Of a DNA stretch of 64,000 bases, positions 3,474 to 18,655 are shown in pieces (position 1 is the first letter of the stretch; each line of letters opens with the position of its first letter). Origin of the DNA: Tepidisphaeraceae bacterium (GTDB lineage: Bacteria; Planctomycetota; Phycisphaerae; Tepidisphaerales; Tepidisphaeraceae); the NCBI GenBank assembly GCA_965247815.1, contig CBDFHW010000025.1, positions 89,058 through 153,057 on the forward strand, in the 5' to 3' direction. A program made the translations under genes and the position numbers. The notes beneath the pieces are model-generated. The model worked only from the letters and a program-made list of their open reading frames with translations. It did not search any database and was not told the DNA's origin.

Positions 3474-3635
3474 GCGACCAGCCCCCATTCATCAACTAAT
3501 TGGACCGAAGACCACAAGCCCGCGTGGTCTTCGGTCTTTTGCGTTGGCCCGCCGGCCGCCTTCGCTGCCGGTCCTTGATCATCCGAAATCAACCGAGCCT
3601 CGATCTTCGCGCGTCGACCCTTTATTCTCCACTCG

Positions 3636-4655: not shown

Positions 4656-4689
4656 CCCTGAACCGACTTGTCGACCGCCGGCATCTGCG

Positions 4690-5699: not shown

Positions 5700-5879
5700 T
5701 CAAGGGGCGTGCAAACCTCTCTCACCCGTATGCCCCAGCTCCGAGGGATGCAACCATTTCCCGTGCGCCGTCGCACTCAACCGTAGGAACTGCTTGACCC
5801 ACAGTGAATAACATTCCATGGTCGATTCCGCCATGCCCCGCTGCTTCGCCACGACGCTGAGTTTTCCAAGCAATCGCAT
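5700..5879 (-). pseudogene. Remnant of tyrosine recombinase (integron-integrase / phage-integrase N-terminal SAM-like domain), 60 aa then stop
   Basis: Minus-strand ATG at 5879 encodes MRLLGKLSVVAKQRGMAESTMECYSLWVKQFLRLSATAHGKWLHPSELGHTGE... This resembles the IntI/Xer N-terminus (EQAYVHWVRAFIRFHG.RHP..LG..EVE). No catalytic domain follows. Confidence 0.4.
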
Positions 5880-6014
5880 GAACCAAACAAATACCAAACT
5901 TTGCTGCGGTGCGTCAACAATATAATATTTCGTTGACAGGCGTCTCAGCAGAGGGCAATCTGGCATTTGCCGATGCGACGCTATGTTGCACCGTCGGTTA
6001 ATTAATCGATAGTT

Positions 6015-6347
6015 ATGTGCCTCCGCCAACTGCCGATCGAAGCATTTGGACCGTTGTGTGACGCCACCTTGCAATCGGTCGCGTGGGTCGACAGCGGTGC
6101 CGACGTGCCGCCGCCGCTTATGGTCACGTTGAAGCTCTGCGGCGGCAACGTCCTTGCATACACCTTCACGTGGGTATCGCACCTTCGCATTTCTCTCGCC
6201 CAGAAGGAACGCGGGTTTTGTCAGCCGTTCAGTTGGGAGTGCAGCGCCCGCCGGCTGGAGGACGGACGCGTTGACGTCCTGTTCGACTTCGCCGGTAACG
6301 GGGCGATCACATTCCAGTGCCAGGACATCTGCGTACCCGGCACATAA
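6015..6347 (+). CDS. Orphan Cys-rich small protein (110 aa)
   Basis: ATG at 6015 in a lower-GC islet. No homology recognised. Could be island cargo. Confidence 0.25.
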   Translation: MCLRQLPIEAFGPLCDATLQSVAWVDSGADVPPPLMVTLKLCGGNVLAYTFTWVSHLRISLAQKERGFCQPFSWECSARRLEDGRVDVLFDFAGNGAITFQCQDICVPGT

Positions 6348-6454
6348 CCCGCCATGCTGTGGACGGCCCCGCGTCGCGTCGAACGTTTGTCCTTGGTATA
6401 GTGTCCCTTGGCGCGTCGCGTTGGCCGCCACAGATTGTCATCCGTTATCCCGCC

Positions 6455-6865
6455 ATGGCAGCGGCTTTGTATAAATTTCGTCTGGGCGACTACCAATCGA
6501 TCACCCTCACATGCGACTCGTACGTCGGCGGCCTCCGGTGCCGAGCGCGTGGGCGGCTCGGGCGGGTCAGTTGGGCGACGGAGACTCAAGTGGCCGCCTC
6601 CGAAATCGAAGCTTTCGCAACGGCTGTCGAGGCGGTGGTTGCCACACTCGTGGGTACCGCGGTGCTCGACCTTCACGGAGACAACCGGATTTGGATCAGC
6701 GTTTCTGTTAATACGTACGGGAGCGTTCGAACGGACTACGAAGTCTCCGGCAACTCCGGCGGGCTGAGCCGAACGGGTTGGCACGCCGGCGGCGCATACG
6801 ACTGCTGGCATCTCCACTACTTGAAACAGTTCCCGTTCCGCAGTTCGGCGGCGGGATTCGAATAA
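6455..6865 (+). CDS. Orphan hypothetical protein (136 aa)
   Basis: ATG at 6455 (MAAALYKF...) in the islet. No recognisable domain. Confidence 0.25.
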   Translation: MAAALYKFRLGDYQSITLTCDSYVGGLRCRARGRLGRVSWATETQVAASEIEAFATAVEAVVATLVGTAVLDLHGDNRIWISVSVNTYGSVRTDYEVSGNSGGLSRTGWHAGGAYDCWHLHYLKQFPFRSSAAGFE

Positions 6866-6953
6866 GGGGGCATCACTCGAACTGGTCGTTAGATTCTAAG
6901 GCTTTGTTCCTGCGGGCTCGCTTTTCGATTTGGAATTCGGGCGTTTTGATCCT

Positions 6954-7079
6954 GTCGGCTGGCGTTTCAACTTCAAATACCGGCATTTCAAACCTCTCGG
7001 CTGGCATTTCAACTTCGAATACTGGCATTCCGATCGGGTCGGCTGGCATTTTGACTTTAAATGCTGGCGTTTCTCCACC
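6954..7079. repeat. 42-bp tandem repeat x3 (each with an internal 21-bp half-repeat)
   Basis: Units at 6954-6995, 6996-7037 and 7038-7079 (gtcggctggcRtttcaacttcRaatacYggcatt...). Spanned by three overlapping ORFs in different frames. Confidence 0.85.
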
Positions 7080-7425
7080 GCTTTCTTCGTTCATTCGGGG
7101 AACTACTCTTTTAAAGCGGGTTGTATCTGACCCATAAAGAATAAGAAGGGGCCATTCCTAATTTTATTATCTGTCTAGGCCTCGTACGACTGACGTACTC
7201 TTAGCGAAGATCAACGAACGCCGGTTCATAGGAATGCCCGGCTTAAGGACTGCGTTGAACGAGTGCTGTTGACCGCCGCCCAATGCTGCCGAATGACTCA
7301 CTATGATTGATGATCATCGTCTCCGATTCATTCGGATTATCGAAAAGAACCCGGGACGAGTCGACTGCTCTGCTGACGACGGACCTGACTCTGAGATTGA
7401 TGATTAATACGCGGCGCTATTTTTA

Positions 7426-8556
7426 ATGGTAACAGTCAGTCAGCGAATCTCGCTTCGCGGCAGATTGTCATGGCACGCTTGCTTGTCCGGTTCTTACGCT
7501 GCGATTATTCTATTACTCGTGGCCAAACCCTTGAAAATCGGATCGGTGCAGTTGCGGAACAACCTGCTTCTTGCGCCCATTGCCGGGTATTGCGATCTGG
7601 CGTTTCGGCTGGTCGCGCGGGCGTGCGGCGACGTCGGGCTGGCCTGCACGGAACTGCTCTGCCCGCACGGGGTGCTCCGCGAGAATCGCAAGTCGATGGA
7701 ACTGGCCATGACCTGCGAGGCGGACGCTCCGCTGTGCATGCAGCTGTACGGCGGGAATGTCGAACTGCTTTGCGAGGCGGCGCGGTGGGCCGAGGACCGC
7801 GGGGCTCATGTCATCGACATCAACATGGGTTGCCCGGTCGATAAGGTGACCAAGCTGGACGGCGGCAGCAAGCTGCTCTGCAACCCCGATCATACGTTGA
7901 AAATGGTCGAGCGGATCGCGGGGGTGCTGCGCAATGTTCCGCTGACGGCCAAGCTGCGATTGGGCTGGGACGACACGTGTCTGGTGGCCCCGTATCTCGC
8001 GGCCCGGCTCGAAGAGACTGGCGTCAAGCTGGTCACTATTCACGGTCGAACCACCGCGATGAAATTCACTGGTCAGGCCCGGCTCGACGGCATCGCCGAA
8101 GTCGCCGCTGCGGTGAAGAACATCCCGGTCATCGGAAACGGCGACATCCGCACGCCGCAGGACGCGAAACACATGATCGGCACGACCGGCGTTGCCGGCG
8201 TGATGATCGGCCGGGGAGCGTTGTCCACGCCGTGGATCTTCCGCGACACCTGGAGCTACCTCACGACAGGAACCATCCCGCCGCCGCCGACGGTCGAAGA
8301 GATCTGCGACCTGATGCGAATGCATTTTATGGGGATGGTGCAATATCGCTGCGAACGGGCGGCCGTGTGCGAGTTCCGCAAGCGGATCAGCTGGTATGCC
8401 AAAAATCTGAACCCCTGTTCGCACCTGAAGGCCGAGATGCGGACGATCGAATGCGTCGCTGATTTCGAGGCCGCGATCGGCCGGTTCCTCGAGTTCCGTC
8501 GAACCCGGGCCGGAACACCGGTCGAAGAATCCGTCGCCGAGTTGGTCCTCGCCTAG
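7426..8556 (+). CDS. tRNA-dihydrouridine synthase (Dus family, DusB-like)
   Basis: Dus signature (LLLAPIAGYCDLAFR ... DINMGCPV ... KLRLGWDD). The true start is possibly the GTG at 7519, because the region upstream of it is AT-rich. Confidence 0.85.
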   Translation: MVTVSQRISLRGRLSWHACLSGSYAAIILLLVAKPLKIGSVQLRNNLLLAPIAGYCDLAFRLVARACGDVGLACTELLCPHGVLRENRKSMELAMTCEADAPLCMQLYGGNVELLCEAARWAEDRGAHVIDINMGCPVDKVTKLDGGSKLLCNPDHTLKMVERIAGVLRNVPLTAKLRLGWDDTCLVAPYLAARLEETGVKLVTIHGRTTAMKFTGQARLDGIAEVAAAVKNIPVIGNGDIRTPQDAKHMIGTTGVAGVMIGRGALSTPWIFRDTWSYLTTGTIPPPPTVEEICDLMRMHFMGMVQYRCERAAVCEFRKRISWYAKNLNPCSHLKAEMRTIECVADFEAAIGRFLEFRRTRAGTPVEESVAELVLA

Positions 8557-8676
8557 CCGCGCTCGAATGCTGCCGAGTGTTCCGACGGCCTTCGAACTTC
8601 GCCCGACCGTGTGAAGCCCGGCCGTGTGAACGCTTGTACGCCGGCCGCGCCCGGTTTAAAGTCTCTGCCGCCAACC

Positions 8677-9627
8677 ATGAATGTGCCTTCGTTTTTAACG
8701 GCCGTCCCGACCACGCTTCGAGAACTGGGCGCGCTCCCGCTTCCGGACTGGGTCCATCGGGTGTCCGGGCTCGCTTCGCCGGTCGGGATTCGCTGGGGCG
8801 ACGGCATCGGGGTCGGAGCGTGCAACTCGCGCGATTTTGCCCGAGTTTCTGTGAAGATTGCGAACGCCATCGACCTTGGCGGCGATGCGTTACAAAAATC
8901 GGTTCGGCTGGCGTATCGAAAACTTTTTGAACAGCTCGCGGCGACCACCGGTTTCTATCCGGTGCGATTCTGGAACTTTATTCCGGGCATCAACGACTCG
9001 CTCGAACGGCAGCAGACCCGTTACATGATTTTCAACGCGGGGCGGTTCCTGGCATTTAAGGGGCACTACGGGGAGGTTGACCTTTTCGACCGAAATGTTG
9101 CCACGGCATCGGGCGTCGGGCACCGCGGGAACGACCTGTGGATTCACTGTCTCGCGTCGCAGGTTCCGGGCGTCCATCTCGGTAATCCCCGGCAGTTGTC
9201 GCCTCATAATTATTCCGCGCGGTTCGGGCGGATGCCGCCTTGTTTCGCGAGGGCGACCCGGCTCCGCGATCAGATATTTATCGCCGGTACCGCGAGCATC
9301 CGCGGCGAGGAATCGCTGCACGACGAGCTGGGAAATCAGCTGGCGGAAACGCTGACGAATCTCGCCTGTGTCACCGAGGCCGCGTCGGTCGTCGGTCCCG
9401 CGGCGTGCCGATCGCAGGCCAACTGGCTGGCGAAACTGACTGACGTCCGGGTCTACCACCCGCGCCCGGCGGACGCGCCGATCATCAGCCAACGTCTGCG
9501 TGAACGACTCGGTGGACGGCCGCGCCTGGAATTTATCCATGCGGATTTGTGTCGGTCAGAACTACTGGTCGAGATCGAGGCGCTGGCGGACCTGTCCGAG
9601 CGAACCAAGCAAGGAGTTTTGCAGTGA
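8677..9627 (+). CDS. Chorismatase-like protein (FkbO/Hyg5/XanB2 family) with C-terminal RidA/YjgF-like domain
   Basis: C-terminal RidA-like motifs (FIAGTASIRGEE...ETLTNL...LLVEIEALA) plus an N-terminal extension of about 150 aa, as in hydroxybenzoate-forming chorismatases. The stop overlaps the next gene (GTGA). The alternative GTG start at 8611 is also possible. Confidence 0.5.
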   Translation: MNVPSFLTAVPTTLRELGALPLPDWVHRVSGLASPVGIRWGDGIGVGACNSRDFARVSVKIANAIDLGGDALQKSVRLAYRKLFEQLAATTGFYPVRFWNFIPGINDSLERQQTRYMIFNAGRFLAFKGHYGEVDLFDRNVATASGVGHRGNDLWIHCLASQVPGVHLGNPRQLSPHNYSARFGRMPPCFARATRLRDQIFIAGTASIRGEESLHDELGNQLAETLTNLACVTEAASVVGPAACRSQANWLAKLTDVRVYHPRPADAPIISQRLRERLGGRPRLEFIHADLCRSELLVEIEALADLSERTKQGVLQ

Positions 9628-10949
9628 ATACCGGCTCCCCGCAGTTCGACGTGATCGTGATCGGCGGGGGGCCCGCCGGGTCGACCGCGGGGCTGGTGCT
9701 CGCAAGCGCCGGCCTGAAGGCGGTCGTTCTCGAGAAAGCCGTTTTCCCGCGCTTCCATATTGGCGAATCGATTCTGCCGTTTAACTTGCCATTGATTCAA
9801 CAACTGGGACTCGAGCCCGAGCTGAGGAAGCTGCCGCACGTTCCCAAGCTGGGAGCCGAGTTCGTGATGGGCGACGATCCGGAAAGCTCGGTCCGATTCG
9901 GCTTCAACCAGGGCCTGTTGCCCGGTTCACCGACGTTTAACATCGAGCGCGCCGGGTTCGACGACATGTTGCTGAAAGCCGCTGCCAAGGCAGGCGCCGA
10001 CGTCCGACAGGACGCCCCAGTTGAGCGCGTCGTTCGCTTGTCCGACGGAGACGTTGCCGTGATGGCCGGGGGGAAGGAAATCACCGGGCGTTACATCCTC
10101 GACGCCAGCGGGCACGGCACCGTAATCGGCAAGCACCTGGGCACTCGCAAAAATATCTCCGACGAACAGCTGAAAAAGGTCGCCTACTTCGCCCATTTCG
10201 AAAATGTGCAGCGGCTCGCCGGTGATGAGGCCGGGCACCCCGGCATCGTGCTTACCAAGGAAGGCTGGTTCTGGTTGATCGGCGTCACCGATCAAAAGAC
10301 CAGCGTGGGGTTCGTGACCTGGCCCCATTTCGCCAGGACGATCAATGTGCCGCCGAACCGCCTGTTGCAATGGGCGATCGCCCGCTGCCCGGTCGTCCGC
10401 CAGCGCATGCAGAACGCGACCGGTCCGACGACCAACGAAGTGCTCGCGGACTTCAGCTACAAGTGCAAACCGTACGCGGGCCCCGGGTATTTTCTGATCG
10501 GTGACGCGGCCGCATTCCTGGACCCGATCTTTTCCACCGGCGTCACACTGGCGATGACCAGCGCGGTCGAGGCATCGCGAAAGATCGTTGCCGTTCTCAA
10601 GGGACAGCTGTCACCGCACAAGGCACAAAGGCAGTACGCGAAATTCGTTCACGACAGCACCTATGTTTTCTGGCGTTTGATCCGCGGGTCTTACAAGCAT
10701 TCCTTCCGCGAACTGTTCCTGAACGGCTCGGGCCCGCTTCAGATGCACAGCGCGGTGATTTCGATCCTGGCCGGCAATGTGTTCCCGAAACCCATTTTCG
10801 AGCTTCGCTGGCGCATGCGTGTCTTTGAGCTCTGCGTGTTCCTGAATCAATACCTGCCGCTGGTTCCCCGGCGGAAGGAATTCTCGCTCGTCTCCCAGGC
10901 CGACACCGAACCGCTGCCGACCAACACCGCCCAACCCAGCATGGCATGA
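9624..10949 (+). CDS. FAD-dependent oxidoreductase, flavin-dependent halogenase-like
   Basis: GTG at 9624 with an AAGGAG RBS at 9611. Rossmann motif VIVIGGGPAGS plus HIGESILP, and a WFWLI segment reminiscent of the halogenase WxWxIP motif. 4-nt overlaps on both sides. Confidence 0.65.
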   Translation: MNTGSPQFDVIVIGGGPAGSTAGLVLASAGLKAVVLEKAVFPRFHIGESILPFNLPLIQQLGLEPELRKLPHVPKLGAEFVMGDDPESSVRFGFNQGLLPGSPTFNIERAGFDDMLLKAAAKAGADVRQDAPVERVVRLSDGDVAVMAGGKEITGRYILDASGHGTVIGKHLGTRKNISDEQLKKVAYFAHFENVQRLAGDEAGHPGIVLTKEGWFWLIGVTDQKTSVGFVTWPHFARTINVPPNRLLQWAIARCPVVRQRMQNATGPTTNEVLADFSYKCKPYAGPGYFLIGDAAAFLDPIFSTGVTLAMTSAVEASRKIVAVLKGQLSPHKAQRQYAKFVHDSTYVFWRLIRGSYKHSFRELFLNGSGPLQMHSAVISILAGNVFPKPIFELRWRMRVFELCVFLNQYLPLVPRRKEFSLVSQADTEPLPTNTAQPSMA

Positions 10950-12391
10950 CGCATTCGACTCGGTTCCTGGAACGCCTTTCTCGTCACGCGACGGAACGAC
11001 CCGACGTGCCCGCGTTCGTCGATTCCGCCAGCGGGCTCGCCCTCACTTGGAAGTCGCTCGCCACGCAGGTCACCGAGCTCGCCGATCGTCTTCGTCGTTC
11101 ATTTCGGCCCGATTCCGTCGTACTGATCCGGTGCCCCAACGGCATCGATTTTCCAGTCGCGTTTCTGAGCGTTTTAGCCGCTGAGTGTGCCGCGTTCCCG
11201 CTTTCGGTCGACAGCCCGGAAATGGAAATTGAAACTCTCGGCAAACGTGTGAAGGCAGACGCGCTGCTGACCTGCGGCGGGGTAGCGGGCGCCGCGACCG
11301 GTTCGCACATCGATCTCCGCATTCTTGCAACGAGCAATCGTGACACTGCACCGGATGTCTCAGCGAGAACCCGCCTGATGCTGCTCAGTTCGGGTTCTAC
11401 CGGTGATCCGAAAATCGTCTGCCGGTCTGATAATTCGCTCGACGCGGTATGCGATCAGATGTGCCAAAGCATCAAAATCGGTCCCGACGATCGGATTCTG
11501 GCGACCGTCCCGCTCTGCCATTCCTACGGCATCGAACACGGCCTGCTCGCGCCGGTCTGGGCCGGCGCGACAGTTTACCTCTGCCGCGGACTCGACCTGC
11601 CTCTGATCAAGCGAGAGCTCACGCATTGCCGGATCACGCATTTACCGGGTGTGCCGTCCATGTACGAGATGCTGGCCAATCATGCCGAGCGCGGTGAACA
11701 GTATACAGAGCTTCGGGCGGCTTACTCCGCCGGCGCGCCGTTACCGCTCGGCGTTTTTGAAGCGGTGTCGAACCGCTGCGGTATCAAAGTCGGCCAGCTC
11801 TACGGCGCGAGTGAGATCGGGTCGGTGACCTATGCCGACCCGACGCTGCCGAACTTCGACCCGTCGAGCGTGGGCCGGGCCATGCCCGGTGCCCAAGTCA
11901 GAGTCACCGCCGGGACCGACCCAAAGCTCTCGCTAGCCGCGGGCGAAGTCGGCCACGTGTGGGTCTCCGCCGCGTCTCAGTTCAGCGGTTACTTTGACGA
12001 ACATGCTTCGCCGTTCGCCGACGGGTTTTATCCGACCGGTGACCTCGGCCGGCTCGATTCGTCGGGCAACCTGTTCGTCACCGGCCGCGTCAAGCTTCTG
12101 ATCGACGTCGGCGGGTTGAAGGTCAACCCGCTGGAAGTCGAAAACGTACTCATGCAACACCCCAGCGTCGGCGACTGTGTCGTTCTTCCGGTGCGGCAAA
12201 GCGCGACGATTCATCGACTGAAGGCGGTCATTACCGCCCGCGACCTTTATAACCCACCCCACATTGAAGAGCTCCGGCAATTCGCACGCGACCGCCTGGC
12301 GACCTATAAAGTCCCCCGCGTGTTCGAAATTCGCGACAGCCTCCCGCGGTCGGCGACCGGGAAGCTCATTCGACACTTGGTGGAAGCATGA
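10946..12391 (+). CDS. Aryl-acid AMP-ligase / adenylate-forming enzyme (XanA2/ApeH-like)
   Basis: AMP-binding motifs LSSGSTGDPK, YGASEIG, GDLGRLDSSGNLFVTGR and KVPR...SATGKL. ATGA overlap with the upstream gene. Confidence 0.85.
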   Translation: MTHSTRFLERLSRHATERPDVPAFVDSASGLALTWKSLATQVTELADRLRRSFRPDSVVLIRCPNGIDFPVAFLSVLAAECAAFPLSVDSPEMEIETLGKRVKADALLTCGGVAGAATGSHIDLRILATSNRDTAPDVSARTRLMLLSSGSTGDPKIVCRSDNSLDAVCDQMCQSIKIGPDDRILATVPLCHSYGIEHGLLAPVWAGATVYLCRGLDLPLIKRELTHCRITHLPGVPSMYEMLANHAERGEQYTELRAAYSAGAPLPLGVFEAVSNRCGIKVGQLYGASEIGSVTYADPTLPNFDPSSVGRAMPGAQVRVTAGTDPKLSLAAGEVGHVWVSAASQFSGYFDEHASPFADGFYPTGDLGRLDSSGNLFVTGRVKLLIDVGGLKVNPLEVENVLMQHPSVGDCVVLPVRQSATIHRLKAVITARDLYNPPHIEELRQFARDRLATYKVPRVFEIRDSLPRSATGKLIRHLVEA

Positions 12392-13152
12392 AACGCGTGC
12401 GGACGACATTCCATTTTCAGATGAGCAAACTCGTCTGGTCCGCAGGTCTGGCGCTGGCGTGCGGTTGTCACCCGGCCCACCCCGAGCACCTGGCGAAATA
12501 CTCGGCGATGGACGAGTCGTCCGAGGTTCGCACGCTCGCGCGGCGGTCCGCGCTGGTCAAAACCGTCTCGGGAACCGGCACCCTGGAACTCAGCCAGCCG
12601 AACGGCGACGGCGTCGTTCTCGACGTGGCCGTGGTGTTGCAGATGCCGAACCACGCCCGGCTCCGCGCCTGGAAGATGGGGCAGGCCGTGTTCGACTTGA
12701 CCGTTTCTCCCGAGGGGGTTTGGCTCGAGACGGGGCAGCAGGGTTCCAGAAAACAGCAGATCACGTCCGCCGGCGATAATGCCGCGCGGGTGACGCGGGG
12801 GCTGTCGCTGCTGAGCGGAGGTTTCTTCGACGACCCGACGCTGACCGGGTTCGACGAGGGCAATCAATTGATCCTTCGTCAGCAGCACCCCAACGAACCT
12901 GCCATCACGTGCCGGGTCGACCGTGACACGCTGACTCCCCGGCAGTTCCGGATGGTCGATTCGACCGGCGTCGAGCGATTCTCACTCACGCTCGGAGAAT
13001 ATGCCGATTCCGCAGGGCTGCTTTGGCCCCGGAAAGTGACCGCCGTTAGTTCCGTCGGCACGATCGTCGTCGCGCTCGACGACTTGGAATTGAACGGCGA
13101 AACCGCCGAAGGTGCTTTCGTCCCGCCGCCGCGTGCGGAGAAATTGCCGTGA
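12388..13152 (+). CDS. Secreted/lipoprotein of unknown function (LolA-like position upstream of an MMPL exporter)
   Basis: Signal peptide with Cys (LALACGC). ATGA overlap upstream and GTGA overlap downstream. Its position mirrors the LolA-like gene of aryl-polyene clusters. Confidence 0.55.
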   Translation: MKRVRTTFHFQMSKLVWSAGLALACGCHPAHPEHLAKYSAMDESSEVRTLARRSALVKTVSGTGTLELSQPNGDGVVLDVAVVLQMPNHARLRAWKMGQAVFDLTVSPEGVWLETGQQGSRKQQITSAGDNAARVTRGLSLLSGGFFDDPTLTGFDEGNQLILRQQHPNEPAITCRVDRDTLTPRQFRMVDSTGVERFSLTLGEYADSAGLLWPRKVTAVSSVGTIVVALDDLELNGETAEGAFVPPPRAEKLP

Positions 13153-15665
13153 CCGAAGGGGGCGATTTATCACTGCCCGCCCTTCCCGCGCGACGCTGGA
13201 AAACGGTCCTCGGGCTGGTCCTTACCGCAGGGGTGCTGTCGTACGCATTCATCAGCCGGATGTCCGCCGACCCGTCGCTGCAGAATATGTTCCCCAGGGG
13301 TGACGCTTCGGCGGCGGCGATGGTGCACGTGCTCAACAATTTTTCAGCCGCCGATGATCTGCTCGTGCTGGCCACTCTTCCCGACCCTCTGGACAAAGCG
13401 CGGCAACACGACCTGACCGACTTCGCGGCCCGGCTCGAAAAATCCATTCACGATTCACCGGAAGCGTCGCAACTGGTCGAAGCGTTCGCCTACCGACCGG
13501 ACGCCGAGTCCCGCGCGTTCATCGCCGGGAATGTAGTGCCCGCCGGGATCTACTACTTGAGCGACGAAAAATATGCCGCGGCGAAGCAGCGTCTGACCAA
13601 AGACGAAATGCGCCGTCAACTCCGGCAGGACGAGGCGATGCTTTCCGCGCCCGGTCCCGCGGCGGGGGCGCTGGCGTCGGTGTTTCTCAAAGACCCGCTG
13701 CGATTGCATGAATTTCTGGTCGACGAACTGAACGCGAGGAAGCCCGCCGGGTTCGGTGATTCGAGCGACGGTTTCTTCTCTCCCGACGGACGAAGCCTGC
13801 TGATCCGCGTCATCGGGAAACGATCGCTCAGCGATCTGGCCTACGCCCGGCAGTTGACCGACGTGATTACCACCCTGGCCGACCGCGTGAAAGAGTCCGT
13901 GCAGGTCGACATCAGCGGCGGGTACGCGATCGCGTCGACCAGCGAGCGGGCGATCCGCGGCGACATGATCGTCAGCGTCGTCTCGTCGGTCGTTCTGCTC
14001 CAATTGCTTTTCGTGCTCGCGTACCGGCGGCCGATTCGATATTTCATTCTGGCGTTTCTTCCCGTCGCGCTGGGCTTGCTCTACGGGTTCGGGGTCCGCG
14101 GCGCGATCTCGTCGACCATCTCGCCCGCGGCGGCGGTCGTCGGCGCCGTGCTGGCGGGCATGGGCATCGACTACACGGTGCTCTACCTTCCGCATTACCA
14201 CACCGCCCGCGACGCGCGCCTGTCTACCGTGGCAGCCGTGGGCCGGACGACCCGGCAACTCGCGTCCCCGCTTCTCGCGGCGTGCCTGACTTCGGTCATC
14301 GGTTTCCTGGCCGTCGGTTGGTCGAGCGTCCCCGCGTTGAAAGATTTCTCGCTGGTCGGATCGCTCGGTCTGATCGGATCGCTGCTGGCCGCGGTCGTGA
14401 TCCTTCCGGCGCTGTTGGCGTCGAACGACCGAGGCCCGGCCTCCGGCGCGCGGCCGCGGGTCAGACTCGAACCCTTGCTCGGTTGGGTCACCCGCCATCG
14501 CAGGCAGGTGCTCTGGGGATGGGCTGGTTTTCTGACATCGTTGGTCATTGTCGTCGCCGCCGTCCCGGGCCCACTACTGGCGATGGAATCAGACCTCACC
14601 GTCATGCACCCCCGGCCGAACAAGCCGTTGGACGCCGAGGCAAAGATTGCCAAACGCATGGGAACAGACCCGGGCGCGATGGCCGTCTTTTTGAAAGCGG
14701 ACACCGACGATCAGCTGATCCAGTTGGCGTACGACGTCCAGCGCAGGCTCTCGGATGCCGCGGTAAAACAGGCCGGGGTGGTCGACGTTTACGGCCTGTC
14801 GACTTTGTTGCCCGACCCGAGAGTCGTCGCAAATCGCCGTGGTCAAGTGTCGGCCGGCGAGACCGATCGCATCCTCGCCGATTTTCGATCCGCGGTTTCA
14901 GAAACGTCTTTCGACCCGGCCGCCTTTTCGGGGTACGAGACGTTTCTGCGATACACGCTCGACGGGCCCGCGACACCGACGATCGCCGACCTTCACCGCA
15001 GCCCCCGGCTGGCCGAAACGCTGCTGGGGCGAGTCCCCGGCGAAGCAATGACGCAGATTTTCTTCGCCGACCCGCTGGACACCCGGGCCCGGCGCGTCGC
15101 CGCAGTCGAGGCCATTCGACACGCGCTGGCGGGCTTGCCCGGCGTGACCCTGACCGGGCTCGGGGTGATCGGTCTCGACACGGAAACGGCGATCCAGCAC
15201 GACCTCCCGCGACTGCTCGCCGCCGCGGTCGGGTTGAACGTGGTTTATCTATTGATTCACTTCCGCCGGATTTCGTCAGTGCTGCTGTCGTTGATTCCCG
15301 CCGCCGTCAGCCTGCTCTGCCTCACCGCGGTCGTCCGGGTCACGGGCATGAAACTGAACCTGGTGAACTTGGTCGCACTGCCGCTGCTGATCGGCATTGA
15401 TGTGGACTACGGGATTTATCTCGTGAGCCTCGCGCGTCCGCGAGTGCCCATCGCGGGGGCCGAAGCGCGGCGGCGGGTGACGACCAGCGTGTACTCGGTG
15501 ATGATCTCGGCGGCGGCAAACGTGCTCGGCTTCGGCTCGCTGGTCACAACCAGCGTCCCGGCGATCCGGTCGCTCGGCTGGGCCGTCGGCGTCGGTGTGC
15601 TGGCCTGTTTTGCGGCAACGATCTTTCTGCTGGTGCCCCTGTTGATACGCGAGGCCGGCGAATGA
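13149..15665 (+). CDS. MMPL/RND-superfamily exporter (two 6-TM bundles with periplasmic domains)
   Basis: 838 aa with two hydrophobic blocks (about 270-430 and 690-830). Similar to HpnN, the ApeM exporter of aryl-polyene clusters and the xanthomonadin exporter. GTG start overlaps the previous stop. Confidence 0.8.
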   Translation: MTEGGDLSLPALPARRWKTVLGLVLTAGVLSYAFISRMSADPSLQNMFPRGDASAAAMVHVLNNFSAADDLLVLATLPDPLDKARQHDLTDFAARLEKSIHDSPEASQLVEAFAYRPDAESRAFIAGNVVPAGIYYLSDEKYAAAKQRLTKDEMRRQLRQDEAMLSAPGPAAGALASVFLKDPLRLHEFLVDELNARKPAGFGDSSDGFFSPDGRSLLIRVIGKRSLSDLAYARQLTDVITTLADRVKESVQVDISGGYAIASTSERAIRGDMIVSVVSSVVLLQLLFVLAYRRPIRYFILAFLPVALGLLYGFGVRGAISSTISPAAAVVGAVLAGMGIDYTVLYLPHYHTARDARLSTVAAVGRTTRQLASPLLAACLTSVIGFLAVGWSSVPALKDFSLVGSLGLIGSLLAAVVILPALLASNDRGPASGARPRVRLEPLLGWVTRHRRQVLWGWAGFLTSLVIVVAAVPGPLLAMESDLTVMHPRPNKPLDAEAKIAKRMGTDPGAMAVFLKADTDDQLIQLAYDVQRRLSDAAVKQAGVVDVYGLSTLLPDPRVVANRRGQVSAGETDRILADFRSAVSETSFDPAAFSGYETFLRYTLDGPATPTIADLHRSPRLAETLLGRVPGEAMTQIFFADPLDTRARRVAAVEAIRHALAGLPGVTLTGLGVIGLDTETAIQHDLPRLLAAAVGLNVVYLLIHFRRISSVLLSLIPAAVSLLCLTAVVRVTGMKLNLVNLVALPLLIGIDVDYGIYLVSLARPRVPIAGAEARRRVTTSVYSVMISAAANVLGFGSLVTTSVPAIRSLGWAVGVGVLACFAATIFLLVPLLIREAGE

Positions 15666-17203
15666 TCGCTATCGTTGAAAGCCTATTCCGAGCTCGGCAC
15701 CGCTCACGCGAACAGTTTCGCGCGGTAGTGGCCTGTGCAATTTTGTCGCTTGCGTTTACAACGTTCTGCGGGTGCGGCGCACCGACCGCCCGGCTGCGGT
15801 TTCCGATCGGCCCGCTGGAGCAGAACCACAGCGTCGTCTGGTATGCGGCGGGACACGCGGGCCGGCCCGGATTCGGGACGTCGCTCGACGAGACGGGGAC
15901 GCTGGACAAGATTTATTACGCGGACAAGGAGAACGGGAAACCGGACCGCATCTACCGGCTCGACGACTATGCCGACGACGAAGTCCCGCATGTTCTGATT
16001 CTGCTGGACTCGATCCCCTTCGACGCGATTACGGCATTTTATCGCGCGGGACACCTGCGATTTCTCGGCCCGCCGCAGAAGGTGATCGCGCCCTTCCCGT
16101 CATTGACAGAAATCTGTTTCAGCGACGTGCTCCGCGCGCCGCCGTTGCCGGGCATGATCGATCAGAGCTACGACCCGCGGACGAATCAAGTCCGCAGCGC
16201 GTTCTGGGATCGGGTCGAAGGCGACTGTGCGCCGTGGCAATGCCGGCTCGATTATCATGCCGCGTTCTGGGAAGACGGCATGTCGTTTCTCGAGCCCCGG
16301 GCTTGGTACGGGGCCGAGCTGGAACGCGCCCGCGGCGTAAGCGAGAAGAGCGGCTCACACGTTACGATCGTTTACCTGGGCAGCTCGGCGTCGATGGTTT
16401 GCAAGTACGGACGGCGGGGAATTGCCGAAACCTTGGAGCGGGCCGAGCAGCTTTGCCTCGAAATTCTTTACGAGCGCCACGGCGCGGTGAAGCTGTCGCT
16501 CATGGCCGACCACGGGCATAACCTGGTCCATTCGATCAATCTGCCGTTGGCCGACTACCTGAAGCAGGCCGGATTTCATCCGAAGGATTCGATCGACGGC
16601 CCGGACGACGTCGTGCCGGAGATCAACGGCCTCGTAACCTACGCCGGCGTGCAGACGTCGCAACCCGGGCGGGTCGCCGACGCGTTGCTGAATCACCCGC
16701 ACATCCAGTTGGTCATGTATCAGCACGGCGAGCGGATCTTCGTGCGAAGCAGCAAGGCCTCTGCCGAGATCGAATGCCGTGGGACGAAATTTCGGTACGC
16801 CCAAATCGCTGGCGACGTATTTAATTACAAGGCTGTGATCGGCAAGCTCGCGGCCGCGGGGTCCGTCGGCGCCGACGGATTCATTTCGGACCACGACTGG
16901 TTCAGCGCGACCGTGGACCATGAATGGCCCGACGCGGTCCGGCGAGTCTGGGACGCGTTCCACCGCAACGCGGTCTATCCGCCCCGGGTGATGCTCACGG
17001 TCGACGACGGGTATTGCGTGGGTCTTCCGGAATATGAGAAATACATCGACATGGCTTCCACGCACGGTTCGCTGAACCAGTTGAACAGCGCGAGCTTTGT
17101 GATGACGATGAACCGCAGCAAACCAATGGGCGCGATGCGGTCTCGCGAGGTTTTGCAATGGCTCGAACCGGGCTTCGAGCCCCACATCAGGACGAATCAG
17201 TGA
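15662..17203 (+). CDS. Alkaline-phosphatase-superfamily type I phosphodiesterase/nucleotide pyrophosphatase-like lipoprotein
   Basis: Lipobox-like FCGCG. NPP-family motifs VLILLDSIPFDAI (compare LDGFR) and LMADHGHN (compare DHGM). ATGA overlap with the exporter gene. Confidence 0.6.
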   Translation: MIAIVESLFRARHRSREQFRAVVACAILSLAFTTFCGCGAPTARLRFPIGPLEQNHSVVWYAAGHAGRPGFGTSLDETGTLDKIYYADKENGKPDRIYRLDDYADDEVPHVLILLDSIPFDAITAFYRAGHLRFLGPPQKVIAPFPSLTEICFSDVLRAPPLPGMIDQSYDPRTNQVRSAFWDRVEGDCAPWQCRLDYHAAFWEDGMSFLEPRAWYGAELERARGVSEKSGSHVTIVYLGSSASMVCKYGRRGIAETLERAEQLCLEILYERHGAVKLSLMADHGHNLVHSINLPLADYLKQAGFHPKDSIDGPDDVVPEINGLVTYAGVQTSQPGRVADALLNHPHIQLVMYQHGERIFVRSSKASAEIECRGTKFRYAQIAGDVFNYKAVIGKLAAAGSVGADGFISDHDWFSATVDHEWPDAVRRVWDAFHRNAVYPPRVMLTVDDGYCVGLPEYEKYIDMASTHGSLNQLNSASFVMTMNRSKPMGAMRSREVLQWLEPGFEPHIRTNQ

Positions 17204-17234
17204 GTCGATCCGGTTTGACCACGAGGGTTCAGCA

Positions 17235-18044
17235 ATGAACGACATTGCTCTGAGGGCAGGGCCGGCGCTGGGCCTCGCGTTGAACGCCCCGGCAACAGTC
17301 TGGGCGGGGTCGGGGGTCGCAATTGCAACGATGGCCATTGGCGGAGTGATCTGGGCTTCCTGTGACCCGCGGGCCGGGGTGTGGGGGCCGGTCCGATGGC
17401 GGGGGGCTGACCTGAGCCGCAAACGCGTCGCGCTGACTTTCGATGACGGCCCGACGCCGGGCGCGACCGACGCCGTGCTGGAAGCGCTCGCTGATCTGCA
17501 CGTACCGGCCGCTTTTTTTGTGATCGGCGAGAACGGCCGCCGGCACCCGCAACTGTTACAGAAGATTCGCGACCAGGGACACCTGATCGGCAATCATTCT
17601 TTCGACCATTCGCGAACGGGTTATCTCCGAGGCGGCGTGTATTGGGACCGGCAGCTGGCCGACACCGACCGGGCGGTGCTGGAAGCGACAGGTGAACGAC
17701 CGATGTTCTTCCGCGCCCCGATCGGGGTCCGAACCCCTCGGCTGACGGCAGCGGTCCGACGTGCCGGTAAAACGCAGGTGACGTGGTCGCGGCGCGGACT
17801 GGACGGCGTCGAGCGATCCCCGGAATATATTCGGGACCGGCTGGTCTCCGGGACCGAAGCCGGGGATATTCTCGTCCTTCACGACGGGGTCGAACCGGGC
17901 CGGCAACGCGACCCGACGTCGACGATCAAGGCCATCCCGATGCTGGTAGCCGGCCTGCGTGAACGCGGGTTCGAATTCGTCCGGCTCGACCAGCTGCTGG
18001 AACTTTCAGGCAGCGCCCCGGCGGCCGTAAGTCAGACGAGGTAA
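17235..18044 (+). CDS. Polysaccharide deacetylase (NodB homology domain, CE4)
   Basis: ALTFDDGP motif, HSFDHS His motif and LVLHD. N-terminal TM/signal region. Confidence 0.8.
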   Translation: MNDIALRAGPALGLALNAPATVWAGSGVAIATMAIGGVIWASCDPRAGVWGPVRWRGADLSRKRVALTFDDGPTPGATDAVLEALADLHVPAAFFVIGENGRRHPQLLQKIRDQGHLIGNHSFDHSRTGYLRGGVYWDRQLADTDRAVLEATGERPMFFRAPIGVRTPRLTAAVRRAGKTQVTWSRRGLDGVERSPEYIRDRLVSGTEAGDILVLHDGVEPGRQRDPTSTIKAIPMLVAGLRERGFEFVRLDQLLELSGSAPAAVSQTR

Positions 18045-18052
18045 GCAACCCA

Positions 18053-18655
18053 ATGAGACGACCGATCCAGATTTGTATCGCGGCCGTTTTGATCGAACTC
18101 GTTGTCTCCGCAATCTCCGTCGCAGGCACCATCGAGTTTCGGCCGACCACGATGGACGCTCCGAAATATCCGACGACCTTCGTCGACGACCGCCGGTGGG
18201 ACGTCGAAGTGCTCGGCACCGGGCTGGCGGACGTGACCCATCGGCACGTGGCCATGGGCGGTGTAACCGTCGGGGTCGGGTATTACGTTTTGCAAAACCT
18301 GGCGATTCAACTCGACGTCAGCGGGTACGGCTTTAACGAAGGGCACGTGAATGGTCCCGCCGCGGGAGTCACGATCGGGCTTCGGCATCATGTGTTGAGC
18401 GTCGGGAAGTCGTCGATTTTTTTCGACATCTCGTTCGGAGAGATCTGGGCCGACCATGATTTGCCCGTTCACGGAACGCACCGCAACAATACGTTCGAGT
18501 TCGGGGTCGGCGTGTCGTACCCGATCGGCGACAATGTTTACCTGATCGGCGGGCCCCGGTTTTTTCATCTCTCGAACGCCAACGACGGGGGCAGCGATCG
18601 GAATCCGAGCATCAACGCAGTGCAGGGCGTCCTGGGCGTGATGTGGAAGTTCTAG
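18053..18655 (+). CDS. Outer-membrane beta-barrel, PagL-like lipid A 3-O-deacylase / acyloxyacyl hydrolase family
   Basis: 200 aa with signal peptide and alternating beta-strand pattern. C-terminal FHLSNA (His-x-Ser catalytic dyad motif as in PagL). Confidence 0.5.
   Translation: MRRPIQICIAAVLIELVVSAISVAGTIEFRPTTMDAPKYPTTFVDDRRWDVEVLGTGLADVTHRHVAMGGVTVGVGYYVLQNLAIQLDVSGYGFNEGHVNGPAAGVTIGLRHHVLSVGKSSIFFDISFGEIWADHDLPVHGTHRNNTFEFGVGVSYPIGDNVYLIGGPRFFHLSNANDGGSDRNPSINAVQGVLGVMWKF

What the first reader, a model, noticed from the sequence alone, without database searches (positions are those of the whole stretch)
8611..18655. Xanthomonadin / aryl-polyene-like starter-unit and export module with no polyketide synthase genes in sight
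Six genes run as one tight operon with five consecutive 4-nt start/stop overlaps (GTGA, ATGA, ATGA, GTGA, ATGA). In order they are a chorismatase-like FkbO/Hyg5/XanB2-family protein with a RidA domain, a flavin-dependent halogenase-like enzyme, an aryl-AMP ligase, a lipoprotein, an MMPL exporter and an AP-superfamily phosphodiesterase lipoprotein. A polysaccharide deacetylase and a PagL-like lipid A deacylase follow immediately. The hydroxybenzoate-making chorismatase, halogenase, aryl-AMP ligase, LolA-like protein and MMPL exporter are the accessory half of xanthomonadin, flexirubin and APE clusters. No ACP, KS, KR, DH, thioesterase or acyltransferase gene appears within 10 kb here. Either the PKS part is elsewhere in the genome, or this is an undescribed system that attaches a (halo)hydroxybenzoate to a lipid or cell-envelope acceptor and exports it.
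Basis: partly seen in the sequence, partly recalled or inferred. Interest (0 to 1): 0.8.

Follow-up and report, generated by a model that had tools for sequence, protein, structure and literature searches.

The report
Split-off half of aryl-polyene pigment cluster
This eight-gene operon from a Phycisphaerae planctomycete encodes the starter-unit, halogenation, loading, export and tailoring half of a xanthomonadin-like membrane-pigment pathway; its polyketide genes, adjacent in most relatives, are missing from this locus, which makes it a known kind of cluster in a split layout rather than a new system.

Summary
Eight co-directional genes (8677-18655) have five exact 4-nt start/stop overlaps. 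They encode a Hyg5/XanB2-type chorismatase, a CndH/PltA-type flavin halogenase, an ANL ligase, a LolB/LolA-fold lipoprotein, an MMPL/RND exporter, a divergent NPP-type (alkaline-phosphatase superfamily) enzyme, a CE4 deacetylase and a PagL-like outer-membrane barrel. No KS, ACP, DH or acyltransferase was found in the 64 kb.

The operon is not a stand-alone novelty. In 34 of 43 informative Phycisphaerae genomes the same genes follow ACP-DH, LolA, an LpxL-type acyltransferase and a KS-CLF fusion. PlsC acyltransferases and an ApeJ-like GT2-DUF2062 are nearby. That is an aryl-polyene/xanthomonadin-type cluster.

Split layouts recur: five loci carry the KS half alone, and several carry the starter/export half alone. 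One of the three closest relatives shares the window's left-flank synteny and has its PKS half 13.5 kb upstream. In the window that slot holds unrelated genes.

The most likely reading is a split cluster with the PKS and anchor genes elsewhere in the genome, as in Azoarcus arcuflavin. I could not reach the rest of the genome, so loss of the PKS half or autonomous function remain minority possibilities. It is a new member of a known kind, of modest interest.

The parts
8677..9627 (+). FkbO/Hyg5/XanB2-family chorismatase, predicted to make 3-hydroxybenzoate (316 aa; an alternative GTG start is at 8611)
   Evidence: PF21168 scores 52 bits and TIGR04444 gives 1.6e-33, which is below its equivalog cut-off. 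The best PDB hit is Hyg5 5AG3 at 3e-27. Query C292 aligns to Hyg5 C327 and query E299 to the catalytic E334, and the FARAT and GTAS motifs are conserved (the role of E334 is from PMC7170507). The sequence is identical to database protein P0001.
9624..10949 (+). Flavin-dependent halogenase of the type that acts on carrier-protein-bound substrates (CndH/PltA/Bmp2/CmlS-like)
   Evidence: PF04820 scores 89.7 bits and the CmlS model 177 bits. PDB hits are CndH 1.7e-51, PltA 2.6e-43 and Bmp2 2.9e-43, against 5.6e-12 for GG-reductase. The motifs are GGGPAG at residue 14, a Lys aligned to CndH K76, WFWLIG at 215 (WxWxIP with P to G) and GDAAAFLDPIFSTG at 293.
10946..12391 (+). ANL-superfamily adenylating ligase, the positional equivalent of XanA2/ArcT/ApeH aryl:ACP ligases
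   Evidence: AMP-binding scores 181 bits and AMP-binding_C 52.6 bits. PDB relatives are generic, such as oxalyl-, benzoate- and malonyl-CoA ligases. The gene is conserved in this position in all related clusters. Its substrate and acceptor were not tested.
12388..13152 (+). LolB/LolA-fold (DUF4292-like) lipoprotein, equivalent in role to ApeN
   Evidence: The window protein has no hit itself. Among 24 orthologs, 12 hit DUF4292, 6 hit LolA_like and 1 hits LolB. The sequence has an N-terminal hydrophobic segment followed by Cys. The single-sequence AF2 model was unusable at pLDDT 37.
13149..15665 (+). MMPL/RND (HAE3/HpnN-like) inner-membrane lipid exporter, equivalent in role to ApeM
   Evidence: PF03176 scores 114.9 bits in two stretches. 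TIGR00921 gives 1.1e-42 and the HpnN model 4.7e-36.
15662..17203 (+). Divergent NPP-type alkaline-phosphatase-superfamily enzyme with an N-terminal signal/anchor; it has no Pfam family
   Evidence: There is no HMM or PDB sequence hit. The AF2 model has pLDDT 95 and pTM 0.91. The top Foldseek PDB hits are ENPP7, Xac NPP, ENPP1, ENPP6 and phosphonoacetate hydrolase, at probability 1.0 and target-normalised TM up to 0.55. D116-S117, D283-H284-G285 and H468 are invariant and H286 is at least 90% conserved in 80 sequences. The position after P146-S147 is T in at least 90% of them (S in some of the 12 orthologs). About 165 relatives were found and every one that carries a source name is called 'hypothetical protein'. 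The gene is present in 10 of 30 contiguous clusters.
17235..18044 (+). CE4 polysaccharide/amino-sugar de-N-acetylase with an N-terminal membrane helix
   Evidence: PF01522 scores 96 bits, and the NodB and PdaB models give about 1e-32. The CE4 motifs TFDDGP and HSFDH are present. A PS-deacetylase (arcN) is part of the Azoarcus arcuflavin locus (PMC3949708).
18053..18655 (+). PagL-like small outer-membrane beta-barrel, a putative lipid esterase
   Evidence: PF09411 scores 23.2 bits against a cut-off of 23, and OMP_b-brl scores 23 bits. The gene is conserved after PDA in L002, L004, L023 and L079, with an invariant H172-x-S174-N175 motif; the C-terminal residue is Phe in four of the five aligned orthologs, including the window.
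3..2148 (+). Syntenic anchor: STAS anti-sigma antagonist, HATPase anti-sigma kinase and a rhomboid protease
   Evidence: These genes are 65%, 61% and 58% identical to the genes that lie just beyond the PKS half on relative contig Ga0683294_0000181 (L078), in the same order and relative orientation.
2128..8556 (.). Interval occupying the slot that holds the PKS half in the syntenic relative. It contains DUF748, a 146-aa ORF, a DHH phosphoesterase, a phosphoribosyltransferase, 2.2 kb without credible ORFs (5217-7426) and DusB
   Evidence: Pfam assignments are. No homolog or pseudogene remnant of KS-CLF, ACP-DH, LolA, LpxL-type acyltransferase, BrkB, LptD or RecQ was found, even at E = 5. The 5217-7426 stretch has 55.6% GC and a 42-bp tandem repeat.

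Best explanation
The operon is one sub-operon of a Phycisphaerae-type halogenated aryl-polyene-lipid pathway, related to xanthomonadin, arcuflavin and the APE lipids.

What is shown:
- The eight gene products belong to the families listed under parts.
- Their orthologs are normally co-linear with an ACP-DH fusion, LolA, an LpxL-type acyltransferase and a KS-CLF fusion upstream. Two PlsC acyltransferases and an ApeJ-like GT2-DUF2062 lie downstream.

The inferred mechanism runs as follows:
1. The chorismatase turns chorismate into 3-hydroxybenzoate.
2. The ligase adenylates it and loads it on the ACP of the ACP-DH protein, as XanA2 and ApeH do.
3. The CndH/PltA-type halogenase halogenates the ACP-bound aryl unit.
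4. KS-CLF, DH and a ketoreductase supplied in trans extend it to a polyene.
5. Acyl- and glycosyltransferases esterify it to a glyco-phospholipid anchor.
6. The deacetylase, the NPP-like phosphodiesterase/transferase and the PagL-like esterase tailor the amino-sugar-phosphate head group and the acyl chains. This step is the most speculative.
7. The MMPL pump with the LolB-like lipoprotein (plus LolA) moves the lipid to the outer membrane.

In this genome the PKS block and the anchor-transferase block are not at this locus. The most likely reason is that they sit at another locus, so that this is a split cluster.
For: Family membership of each gene is supported.

Co-linearity with the PKS block:
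- It is seen in JGI/ENA loci L001, L004, L007, L010-12 and L079.
- It is seen in 34 of 43 informative KS-anchored loci from GTDB species representatives.

Split arrangements recur:
- The KS half stands alone in L021, L022, L029, L067 and L068.
- FkbO stays with the KS half in L016 and L019.
- The starter/export half stands alone in L002, L005, L006 and L083.

Direct proof that both halves coexist when split comes from contig Ga0683294_0000181. It carries the FkbO-to-PagL operon and, 13.5 kb upstream and divergent, ACP-DH, an LpxL-type acyltransferase and KS-CLF (P0129). That contig shares STAS-HATPase-rhomboid synteny with the window.

The window genes look functional:
- Every ORF is intact and translationally coupled.
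- Catalytic residues are kept.
- The proteins are no more diverged from outgroup orthologs than those of relatives that keep the PKS nearby.

Literature:
- Two unlinked arc loci are both essential in Azoarcus. Their inventory includes XanB2, a halogenase, an AMP-ligase, a PS-deacetylase, an exporter, LolA and an OMP (PMC3949708).
- APE lipids have a GalNAc-phosphate-glycerol head group. ApeJ and ApeD attach it, and ApeL, ApeM and ApeN transport the lipid (bioRxiv 10.1101/2020.12.19.423268; PMC8253772).
- antiSMASH already calls 'arylpolyene' clusters in Phycisphaerae isolates (PMC13514998, PMC8882080).
Against: - The rest of the source genome could not be read, so a KS-CLF / ACP-DH locus in it is not demonstrated. 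The window comes from a 511,555-bp contig.
- The KS-CLF scan of GTDB representatives returned no contig of that length.
- The only lead is P0147, a KS-CLF on a 514,425-bp NCBI/ENA contig. It is compatible with the window's phylogenetic position but not distinguishable from a dozen other candidates.
- At the syntenic position the PKS block is absent and has left no remnants. The downstream acyltransferase and GT2 genes are missing as well. Two independent losses would also produce this picture.
- No ketoreductase is encoded in the core of the related clusters.
- The biochemical steps are inferred from family membership only.
Confidence: 0.65

Rival explanations
1. Orphaned remnant. The lineage deleted the PKS block and the anchor-transferase block, and the remaining operon is a recently stranded, functionless relic.
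For: Both flanking blocks present in the syntenic relative are missing here. The slot contains 2.2 kb of low-GC sequence without ORFs and a weak integrase-like fragment, which suggests rearrangement. No KS-CLF could be tied to this genome.
Against: All eight ORFs are intact, with five preserved 4-nt overlaps. Every catalytic or invariant residue checked is retained. There is no rate acceleration relative to L023, L002 and L079. Half-clusters of both kinds are common in relatives, which points to relocation rather than loss.
Confidence: 0.15
2. Autonomous PKS-less system. The operon alone makes a (halo)hydroxybenzoate, activates it and delivers it to an envelope lipid or exports it, with no polyene chain.
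For: No PKS genes lie within 64 kb. Related loci L005, L083 and L084 show that sub-modules can exist apart from KS genes. XanB2-type products such as 3-HBA also act as diffusible factors in Xanthomonas (PMC6859482).
Against: The operon has no carrier protein, although its halogenase belongs to the carrier-dependent CndH/PltA/Bmp2 group. It has no acyl- or glycosyltransferase to attach the aryl acid. Every gene has an ortholog embedded in full KS-containing clusters at 45-68% identity, so there is no sign of a distinct subfamily.
Confidence: 0.1
3. Ordinary cluster with the PKS block just beyond the left edge of the window, less than about 15 kb away as in contig Ga0683294_0000181.
For: Only 8.6 kb lie upstream of the operon in the window. 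A close relative has the PKS block 13.5 kb upstream.
Against: In that relative the PKS block lies between the rhomboid gene and the operon. The window contains the orthologous STAS-HATPase-rhomboid genes at 3-2148, and the space between them and the operon holds no PKS genes. In the relative the next genes beyond STAS are DAHP synthase, TIM, SecG and YicC.
Confidence: 0.07

Closest known systems
Xanthomonadin (Xanthomonas pig/xan cluster) and arcuflavin (Azoarcus sp. BH72 arc loci) biosynthesis
   Same: Both have a XanB2-type chorismatase, a halogenase, an aryl-AMP/ACP ligase (XanA2/ArcT), a polysaccharide deacetylase, an RND-type exporter, a LolA-family protein and an outer-membrane protein. 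They are coupled to a type II KS/CLF, DH, ACP, an acyltransferase and a glycosyltransferase. In Azoarcus the genes lie at two unlinked loci and both are essential (PMC3949708, PMC6859482).
   Different: This cluster is from Planctomycetota (Phycisphaerae), not Proteobacteria. In the related full clusters KS and CLF are fused, ACP and DH are fused, and no cluster ketoreductase (XanH/FabG3) is present. An NPP-like enzyme and a PagL-like barrel are added. The split here separates different gene sets than the split in Azoarcus.
Aryl polyene (APE) clusters of E. coli CFT073 and Xenorhabdus doucetiae (apeA-R)
   Same: Roles match gene for gene. ApeH corresponds to the ligase, ApeM to the MMPL pump and ApeN (LolB-like) to the DUF4292-like lipoprotein. 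In relatives, ApeL corresponds to LolA, ApeO/C to KS-CLF, ApeE/I to ACP-DH and ApeJ to GT2-DUF2062(-acyltransferase). The product there is an outer-membrane APE-GalNAc-phosphate-glycerol lipid (10.1101/2020.12.19.423268; PMC8253772).
   Different: APE clusters take 4-HBA from UbiC and have no chorismatase or halogenase. They do encode KR (ApeQ), a second KS (ApeR), a thioesterase (ApeK) and ApeG. None of these is in the window or in the core of the related clusters.
Hyg5/FkbO chorismatases (PDB 5AG3, 4BPS)
   Same: The domain pair is the same. The catalytic Glu (Hyg5 E334) and the Cys (C327) are conserved, as are the chorismate-binding FARAT and GTAS motifs.
   Different: The alignable region shows only modest similarity to Hyg5 (99 bits over residues 74-303). 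The score is below the TIGR04444 cut-off (116 against 325 bits). The N-terminal 70 residues do not align. The product is untested.
Carrier-protein-dependent flavin halogenases CndH, PltA, Bmp2 and CmlS
   Same: They are the best structural-sequence relatives. The FAD motif and the Lys aligned to CndH K76 are present, along with a near-complete WxWxIP motif.
   Different: The motif reads WFWLIG, with Gly in place of Pro. The protein lacks the C-terminal extension of CmlS and CndH (441 aa against 512-591). The substrate and the halide are unknown.
NPP/ENPP lipid phosphodiesterases (ENPP7 alkaline sphingomyelinase, ENPP6, autotaxin, Xanthomonas NPP)
   Same: The predicted core fold is the same. 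The conserved metal-ligand and nucleophile pattern (D-S ... S/T ... D-H-G-H ... H) is present, and the protein is located outside the cytoplasm.
   Different: There is no detectable sequence similarity: identity is 10-14% and no Pfam model matches. TM-scores are only 0.36-0.55. The protein has an extra N-terminal beta domain and a beta insert. The family is seen so far almost only in these clusters.

Membership tests
Aryl-polyene / xanthomonadin-type biosynthetic gene cluster | APE-type ketosynthase plus chain-length factor in the cluster | tested here: not met
   There is none in the 64-kb window (Pfam; tblastn). It is present immediately upstream of the orthologous operon in 34 of 43 informative related genomes.
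Aryl-polyene / xanthomonadin-type biosynthetic gene cluster | Dedicated acyl carrier protein and FabA/ApeI-type dehydratase | tested here: not met
   ACP and DH profile HMMs were built from 38 orthologous ACP-DH fusions and run against all six frames of the window. The best ACP hit had E = 3.2, and the only DH hit (4.7e-4) lies inside the ImuB-like gene. Both features are present in related clusters.
Aryl-polyene / xanthomonadin-type biosynthetic gene cluster | Aryl-acid adenylating (acyl-ACP) ligase | tested here: inconclusive
   An ANL enzyme is present in the conserved position. Its specificity for hydroxybenzoate and for an ACP acceptor cannot be read from the sequence.
Aryl-polyene / xanthomonadin-type biosynthetic gene cluster | RND/MMPL exporter with Lol-like partners | tested here: met
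   MMPL scores 114.9 bits. The adjacent lipoprotein's orthologs hit DUF4292, LolA_like and LolB. The LolA-like partner itself is encoded only in the PKS half of relatives.
Aryl-polyene / xanthomonadin-type biosynthetic gene cluster | Anchor-attaching acyltransferase and glycosyltransferase (ApeD/ApeJ-like) | tested here: not met
   There are no PF01553, PF03279 or GT2-DUF2062 homologs in the window. They are present next to the orthologous operon in L002, L004, L010 and L079.
Aryl-polyene / xanthomonadin-type biosynthetic gene cluster | Orthology of the window genes to genes embedded in complete clusters | tested here: met
   All eight genes have co-linear orthologs at 38-72% identity inside KS-containing clusters.
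FkbO/Hyg5/XanB2 chorismatase | N-terminal FkbO_Hyg5-like domain plus a C-terminal YjgF-like domain with the catalytic Glu | tested here: met
   PF21168 is above its cut-off. The alignment to Hyg5 covers residues 74-303 with E299 aligned to E334 and C292 to C327. The NCBIfam TIGR04444 score is below its curated cut-off.
FkbO/Hyg5/XanB2 chorismatase | Conversion of chorismate to 3-HBA, 4-HBA or DCDC | not testable with these tools
   This needs an enzyme assay.
Flavin-dependent halogenase | GxGxxG FAD motif, catalytic Lys and WxWxIP motif | tested here: met
   GGGPAG is present and a Lys aligns to CndH K76. The third motif reads WFWLIG, so its last position is Gly rather than Pro. PF04820 scores 89.7 bits against a cut-off of 21.
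Flavin-dependent halogenase | Closer to halogenases than to geranylgeranyl reductases or monooxygenases | tested here: met
   CndH scores 179 bits and the CmlS model 177 bits. The comparison values are 110 bits for GG-red-SF, 49 bits for DGGGPL reductase and 119 bits for QhpG.
Alkaline-phosphatase superfamily, NPP type (ORF 15662-17203) | Core alpha/beta fold with conserved metal-binding Asp/His and a Ser/Thr nucleophile | tested here: met
   The AF2 model has pLDDT 95. Foldseek puts ENPP7, NPP, ENPP1 and ENPP6 at the top with probability 1.0. D116, D283, H284 and H468 are invariant, H286 is at least 90% conserved, and a conserved Thr (Ser in some orthologs) follows P146-S147.
Alkaline-phosphatase superfamily, NPP type (ORF 15662-17203) | Match to Pfam PF01663 (Phosphodiest) | tested here: not met
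   The window protein has no hit, even at E = 10. Only 1 of 12 orthologs hits, at E = 0.0036.
PagL lipid A 3-O-deacylase | PagL domain with the His-x-Ser catalytic pair in an 8-stranded outer-membrane barrel | tested here: inconclusive
   PF09411 scores 23.2 bits against a cut-off of 23. An H-x-S-N motif is invariant in 5 orthologs, and the C-terminal residue is Phe in four of the five. Its equivalence to the PagL catalytic pair rests on my recollection of the PagL literature. There is no PDB sequence hit and the fold was not modelled.

The most novel reading that the evidence does not exclude
The organism truly has no KS-CLF, ACP-DH or ApeJ-like genes. The intact eight-gene operon then works on its own or with housekeeping lipid enzymes. 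It would make a halogenated hydroxybenzoate, and the MMPL/LolB-like/NPP-like/deacetylase/PagL-like set would attach it to an envelope glycolipid and display it. That would be a polyene-free aryl-lipid system derived from an aryl-polyene cluster.
Probability: 0.1. Interest if true: 0.7.

Novelty: new member of a known kind. Interest (0 to 1): 0.3.

Why it matters
The finding shows that the 'accessory' half of aryl-polyene/xanthomonadin clusters can be an independent transcription unit. KS-based genome mining tools such as antiSMASH's arylpolyene rule will miss such a unit. When they find the KS half alone, they will call the cluster too short.

The finding also maps a Phycisphaerae version of these clusters that is conserved across dozens of uncultured lineages. 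This version has a fused KS-CLF, a fused ACP-DH, a chorismatase and a halogenase. It also has a previously unannotated NPP-like enzyme family and a PagL-like barrel. Those genes point to halogenated aryl-polyene glyco-phospholipids in planctomycete outer membranes, a chemistry nobody has isolated. None of this overturns current understanding.

Tried and rejected
- Locating the source contig by exact-protein look-up failed for the ligase, P0001 and P0147. All returned 'not on record'.
- Cluster-member look-up gave no accession or organism name, only the contig length of 511,555 bp.
The source genome is therefore either not a species representative or lacks a matching KS-CLF.
- I tried to tie P0147 (a KS-CLF on a 514,425-bp NCBI/ENA contig) to the window with a mirror-tree test of identity vectors. 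It ranked 13th of 120 with an RMSD inside the noise, so the test does not discriminate.
- A search for PKS pseudogene remnants in 2100-8700 at E = 5 returned only noise.
- I first considered the minus-strand ORF 18793-19428 as a divergent PlsC acyltransferase, by position. It has no Pfam hit, no similarity to the relatives' acyltransferases and a non-protein-like translation.
- Single-sequence AF2 of the 254-aa lipoprotein gave pLDDT 37 and was unusable.
- The AFDB Foldseek library was unavailable.
- Rfam and tRNA scans of the window were empty.
- The promoter and terminator scan was at background level.

Full report
**1. Observation**

The region 8611-18655 contains eight co-directional ORFs. 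The deacetylase gene follows after 31 nt and the last gene after 8 nt.

ORF1 most probably starts at ATG 8677. That gives 316 aa, identical to a database protein (P0001) seen on one 511,555-bp NCBI/ENA contig.

**2. Gene identities**

- **ORF1** matches the FkbO/Hyg5 N-domain (52 bits, cut-off 27) and TIGR04444 (1.6e-33, below its equivalog cut-off). Against solved structures it aligns best to Hyg5 (5AG3, 3e-27). Query E299 falls on the catalytic Glu-334 and C292 on Cys-327, and the FARAT and GTAS motifs are kept. The role of Glu-334 is documented in PMC7170507. PDB entry 5A3K is the same protein with Ser at residue 327. The protein is a real chorismatase, probably a 3-hydroxybenzoate synthase, and not merely a RidA deaminase.
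- **ORF2** is halogenase-like. PF04820 scores 89.7 bits and the CmlS model 177 bits. PDB hits are CndH 1.7e-51, then PltA, Bmp2 and CmlS. Geranylgeranyl-type reductases score only 49-110 bits. It has GGGPAG, a Lys aligned to CndH K76, WFWLIG (WxWxIP with a final Gly) and the GDAAxFxDP motif. Its closest solved relatives act on carrier-protein-tethered substrates; that point is my own knowledge of those enzymes.
- **ORF3** is a generic ANL ligase.
- **ORF4** has no hit itself. Of 24 orthologs, 12 match DUF4292, 6 match LolA_like and 1 matches LolB.
- **ORF5** is an MMPL/HAE3-type RND pump.
- **ORF6** has no Pfam, NCBIfam or PDB sequence hit. With an 80-sequence alignment AlphaFold gives pLDDT 95. 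Foldseek places ENPP7, Xanthomonas NPP, ENPP1, ENPP6 and phosphonoacetate hydrolase on top at probability 1.0 and TM 0.36-0.55. The D-S, D-H-G-H and S-x-H residues are invariant or nearly so, which fits the metal and nucleophile set of that superfamily. The family has no curated model and only about 165 detectable members; every one that carries a source name is called 'hypothetical protein'.
- **ORF7** is a CE4 deacetylase with the TFDDGP and HSFDH motifs and an N-terminal membrane helix.
- **ORF8** is borderline for PagL (23.2 bits against a cut-off of 23). It is conserved with the operon in relatives and has an invariant H-x-S-N motif; its C-terminal residue is Phe in four of the five aligned orthologs.

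**3. Absence of PKS genes**

- Pfam scans of the likely genes among the ORFs of at least 150 aa across the 64 kb found none. What they found instead:
  - Housekeeping and other functions: DusB, EgtD/EgtB, MetK, AstA/AstD, pyruvate kinase, a TonB receptor and DnaE2/ImuB.
  - Transposases.
- tblastn with the KS-CLF, ACP-DH, LolA, LpxL-type and PlsC-type acyltransferases, GT2-DUF2062 and PPTase of related clusters found nothing in the window.
- ACP and DH profile HMMs run over all six frames also found nothing.

**4. Related sequences**

The organism is a Phycisphaerae planctomycete. Named hits are Tepidisphaeraceae, Humisphaera and Phycisphaerales.

Neighbourhoods of chorismatase homologs show a canonical cluster:

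- On the plus strand: ACP-DH (PP-binding plus FabA/ApeI-like), LolA, LpxL-type acyltransferase, KS-CLF fusion (about 780 aa), chorismatase, halogenase, ligase, DUF4292-like lipoprotein, MMPL, optionally the NPP-like gene, deacetylase, and optionally the PagL-like gene.
- On the opposite strand: one or two PlsC acyltransferases and GT2-DUF2062. In L079 these are fused like ApeJ.
- In the KS-CLF fusion the first domain keeps the active-site Cys. The second domain has no obvious counterpart of that Cys motif, as read from the alignment consensus rather than from a site-by-site alignment.

A KS-CLF-anchored scan of GTDB species representatives gave 64 loci, of which 43 were informative:

| Layout | Loci |
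|---|---|
| Contiguous with the starter/export operon | 34 |
| PKS half alone (10 kb downstream lacks the operon) | 5 |
| Only the chorismatase follows the KS half | 3 |
| Rearranged | 1 |

Conversely, chorismatase- or halogenase-anchored loci L002, L005, L006, L083 and L084 lack KS genes nearby. The cluster is therefore usually contiguous but breaks up repeatedly.

**5. The decisive comparison**

The three closest relatives of the window operon by Hal, Lig and FkbO scores are L005, L023 and L002, and L002 is on JGI contig Ga0683294_0000181.

- Contig Ga0683294_0000181 also encodes KS-CLF (P0129), preceded by ACP-DH, a 332-aa protein and the LpxL-type acyltransferase. This block lies 13.5 kb upstream of the chorismatase and is divergently oriented. 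GFO, Rieske, LptD, RecQ, MFS and an SdrD-like gene separate the two.
- Beyond the PKS block come a 616-aa protein, BrkB, rhomboid, an anti-sigma HATPase and STAS.
- The window starts with the orthologs of STAS, HATPase and rhomboid (65%, 61% and 58% identity) in the same order and orientation relative to the operon.
- The 6.5 kb between rhomboid and the operon holds DUF748, a small ORF, a DHH protein, a phosphoribosyltransferase, 2.2 kb of low-GC sequence without ORFs but with a 42-bp tandem repeat, and DusB. There is no trace of PKS genes, even as remnants.
- The downstream acyltransferase and GT2 genes are likewise replaced, here by a convergent ergothioneine operon.

The locus has therefore been remodelled on both sides of an intact operon.

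**6. Is the operon alive?**

- All ORFs are intact and coupled.
- Catalytic and invariant residues are retained.
- The window proteins are as similar to outgroup orthologs as those of L023, L002 and L079, which keep the PKS half nearby. Differences are at most about 5 points.

This argues against a long-dead relic. Indirectly it argues that the partner genes still exist somewhere.

I could not prove that. The exact-protein contig look-up does not hold this assembly, and the GTDB scan returned no 511,555-bp contig. The one suggestive KS-CLF is P0147, on a 514,425-bp NCBI/ENA contig that is likewise missing from the look-up index. It is phylogenetically compatible, but so are a dozen others.

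**7. Comparison with known systems**

- **Xanthomonadin and arcuflavin.** These clusters contain a XanB2 chorismatase, a halogenase, an aryl-AMP ligase, a PS-deacetylase, an exporter, LolA and an OMP, next to KS, CLF-like, DH, KR, ACP, acyltransferase and glycosyltransferase genes. In Azoarcus BH72 the genes lie at two unlinked loci and both are essential (PMC3949708). XanA2 is a 3-HBA:ACP ligase (cited in PMC6859482).
- **APE clusters.** They supply the transport logic, with ApeM as the RND pump, ApeL as LolA-like and ApeN as LolB-like. They also supply the product logic: the polyene is esterified to a GalNAc-phosphate-glycerol lipid by ApeJ and ApeD (10.1101/2020.12.19.423268; PMC8253772). 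A deacetylase, an NPP-type phosphodiesterase/transferase and an outer-membrane esterase fit tailoring of such a head group, but that step is my inference.
- **Phycisphaerae.** antiSMASH already labels 'arylpolyene' regions in Phycisphaerae isolates (PMC13514998, PMC8882080). No product has been characterised.

**8. Verdict**

Recent orphaning is about 0.15, autonomous PKS-less function about 0.1, and a PKS just left of the window about 0.07 or less.

The finding is a new member of a known kind. The Phycisphaerae architecture has three variant features worth a note: the fused KS-CLF and ACP-DH, the absence of a cluster ketoreductase, and the uncurated NPP-like family. Interest is modest.

Noticed in passing
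window 5217-7426: This 2.2-kb stretch has no credible ORF; its translations are rich in Arg, Ser and Pro. Its GC is 55.6% against about 61% nearby, and it has a 42-bp tandem repeat (2.9 copies) at 6951-7073. It lies in the slot where the syntenic relative carries the PKS half. It may be a rearrangement scar or an unrecognised non-coding element.
   Followed up: partly
window 5700-6431 (-): This ORF has a very weak Phage_int_SAM_4 match (E about 9e-4, below the cut-off). It may be an integrase remnant next to the remodelled interval, but the translation does not look protein-like.
   Followed up: no
window 19471-21900 (-): EgtD (histidine methyltransferase) and EgtB (FGE-sulfatase/DinB) form an ergothioneine biosynthesis pair. 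The pair converges on the end of the operon. It is a second antioxidant pathway next to a putative antioxidant pigment module.
   Followed up: no
window 53590-62739: A DnaE2-type error-prone polymerase and an ImuB-like Y-family gene (minus strand) are followed by an IS110 transposase split into two ORFs, probably by a frameshift, and an IS3/rve transposase. GC falls to 0.545-0.575 at 60-64 kb.
   Followed up: no
window 2128-3048 (-) and L079 14764-17109: A DUF748 (YhdP/AsmA-like lipid-transport family) gene lies near the operon in the window, and a 781-aa DUF748 gene lies near the cluster in L079. A DusB fragment also abuts the cluster in L082, as DusB does in the window. These could be loose neighbourhood conservation or coincidence.
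   Followed up: partly
L087-L091 (JGI metagenome contigs): A different lineage carries a related but reordered cluster: deacetylase, halogenase, LpxL-type acyltransferase, ACP-DH, KS. Identity to the window and panel proteins is 27-37%. The taxon was not identified.
   Followed up: no
L084 (272-kb contig) and L083: In L084 a halogenase homolog (54% identity) stands alone, with no other cluster gene within 10 kb on either side. L083 has halogenase through deacetylase, but no chorismatase or KS within 10 kb upstream.
   Followed up: partly
L072 and P0348: A KS-CLF fusion at 55% identity sits on a contig binned as Burkholderiales. A homolog of the NPP-like protein is labelled Desulfobacteraceae. 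These are probably mis-binned contigs or horizontal transfer.
   Followed up: no
L023 9977-12308 (chromosome OY969903.1): The KS-CLF gene of this complete MAG chromosome is split into a 672-aa and a 173-aa ORF. This is probably a long-read frameshift error rather than a pseudogene.
   Followed up: no
related clusters L001, L004, L007, L023: No ketoreductase is encoded in the core of the Phycisphaerae clusters, unlike XanH/FabG3 or ApeQ. L079 has an SDR about 5 kb downstream. The reduction step may use the housekeeping FabG.
   Followed up: no
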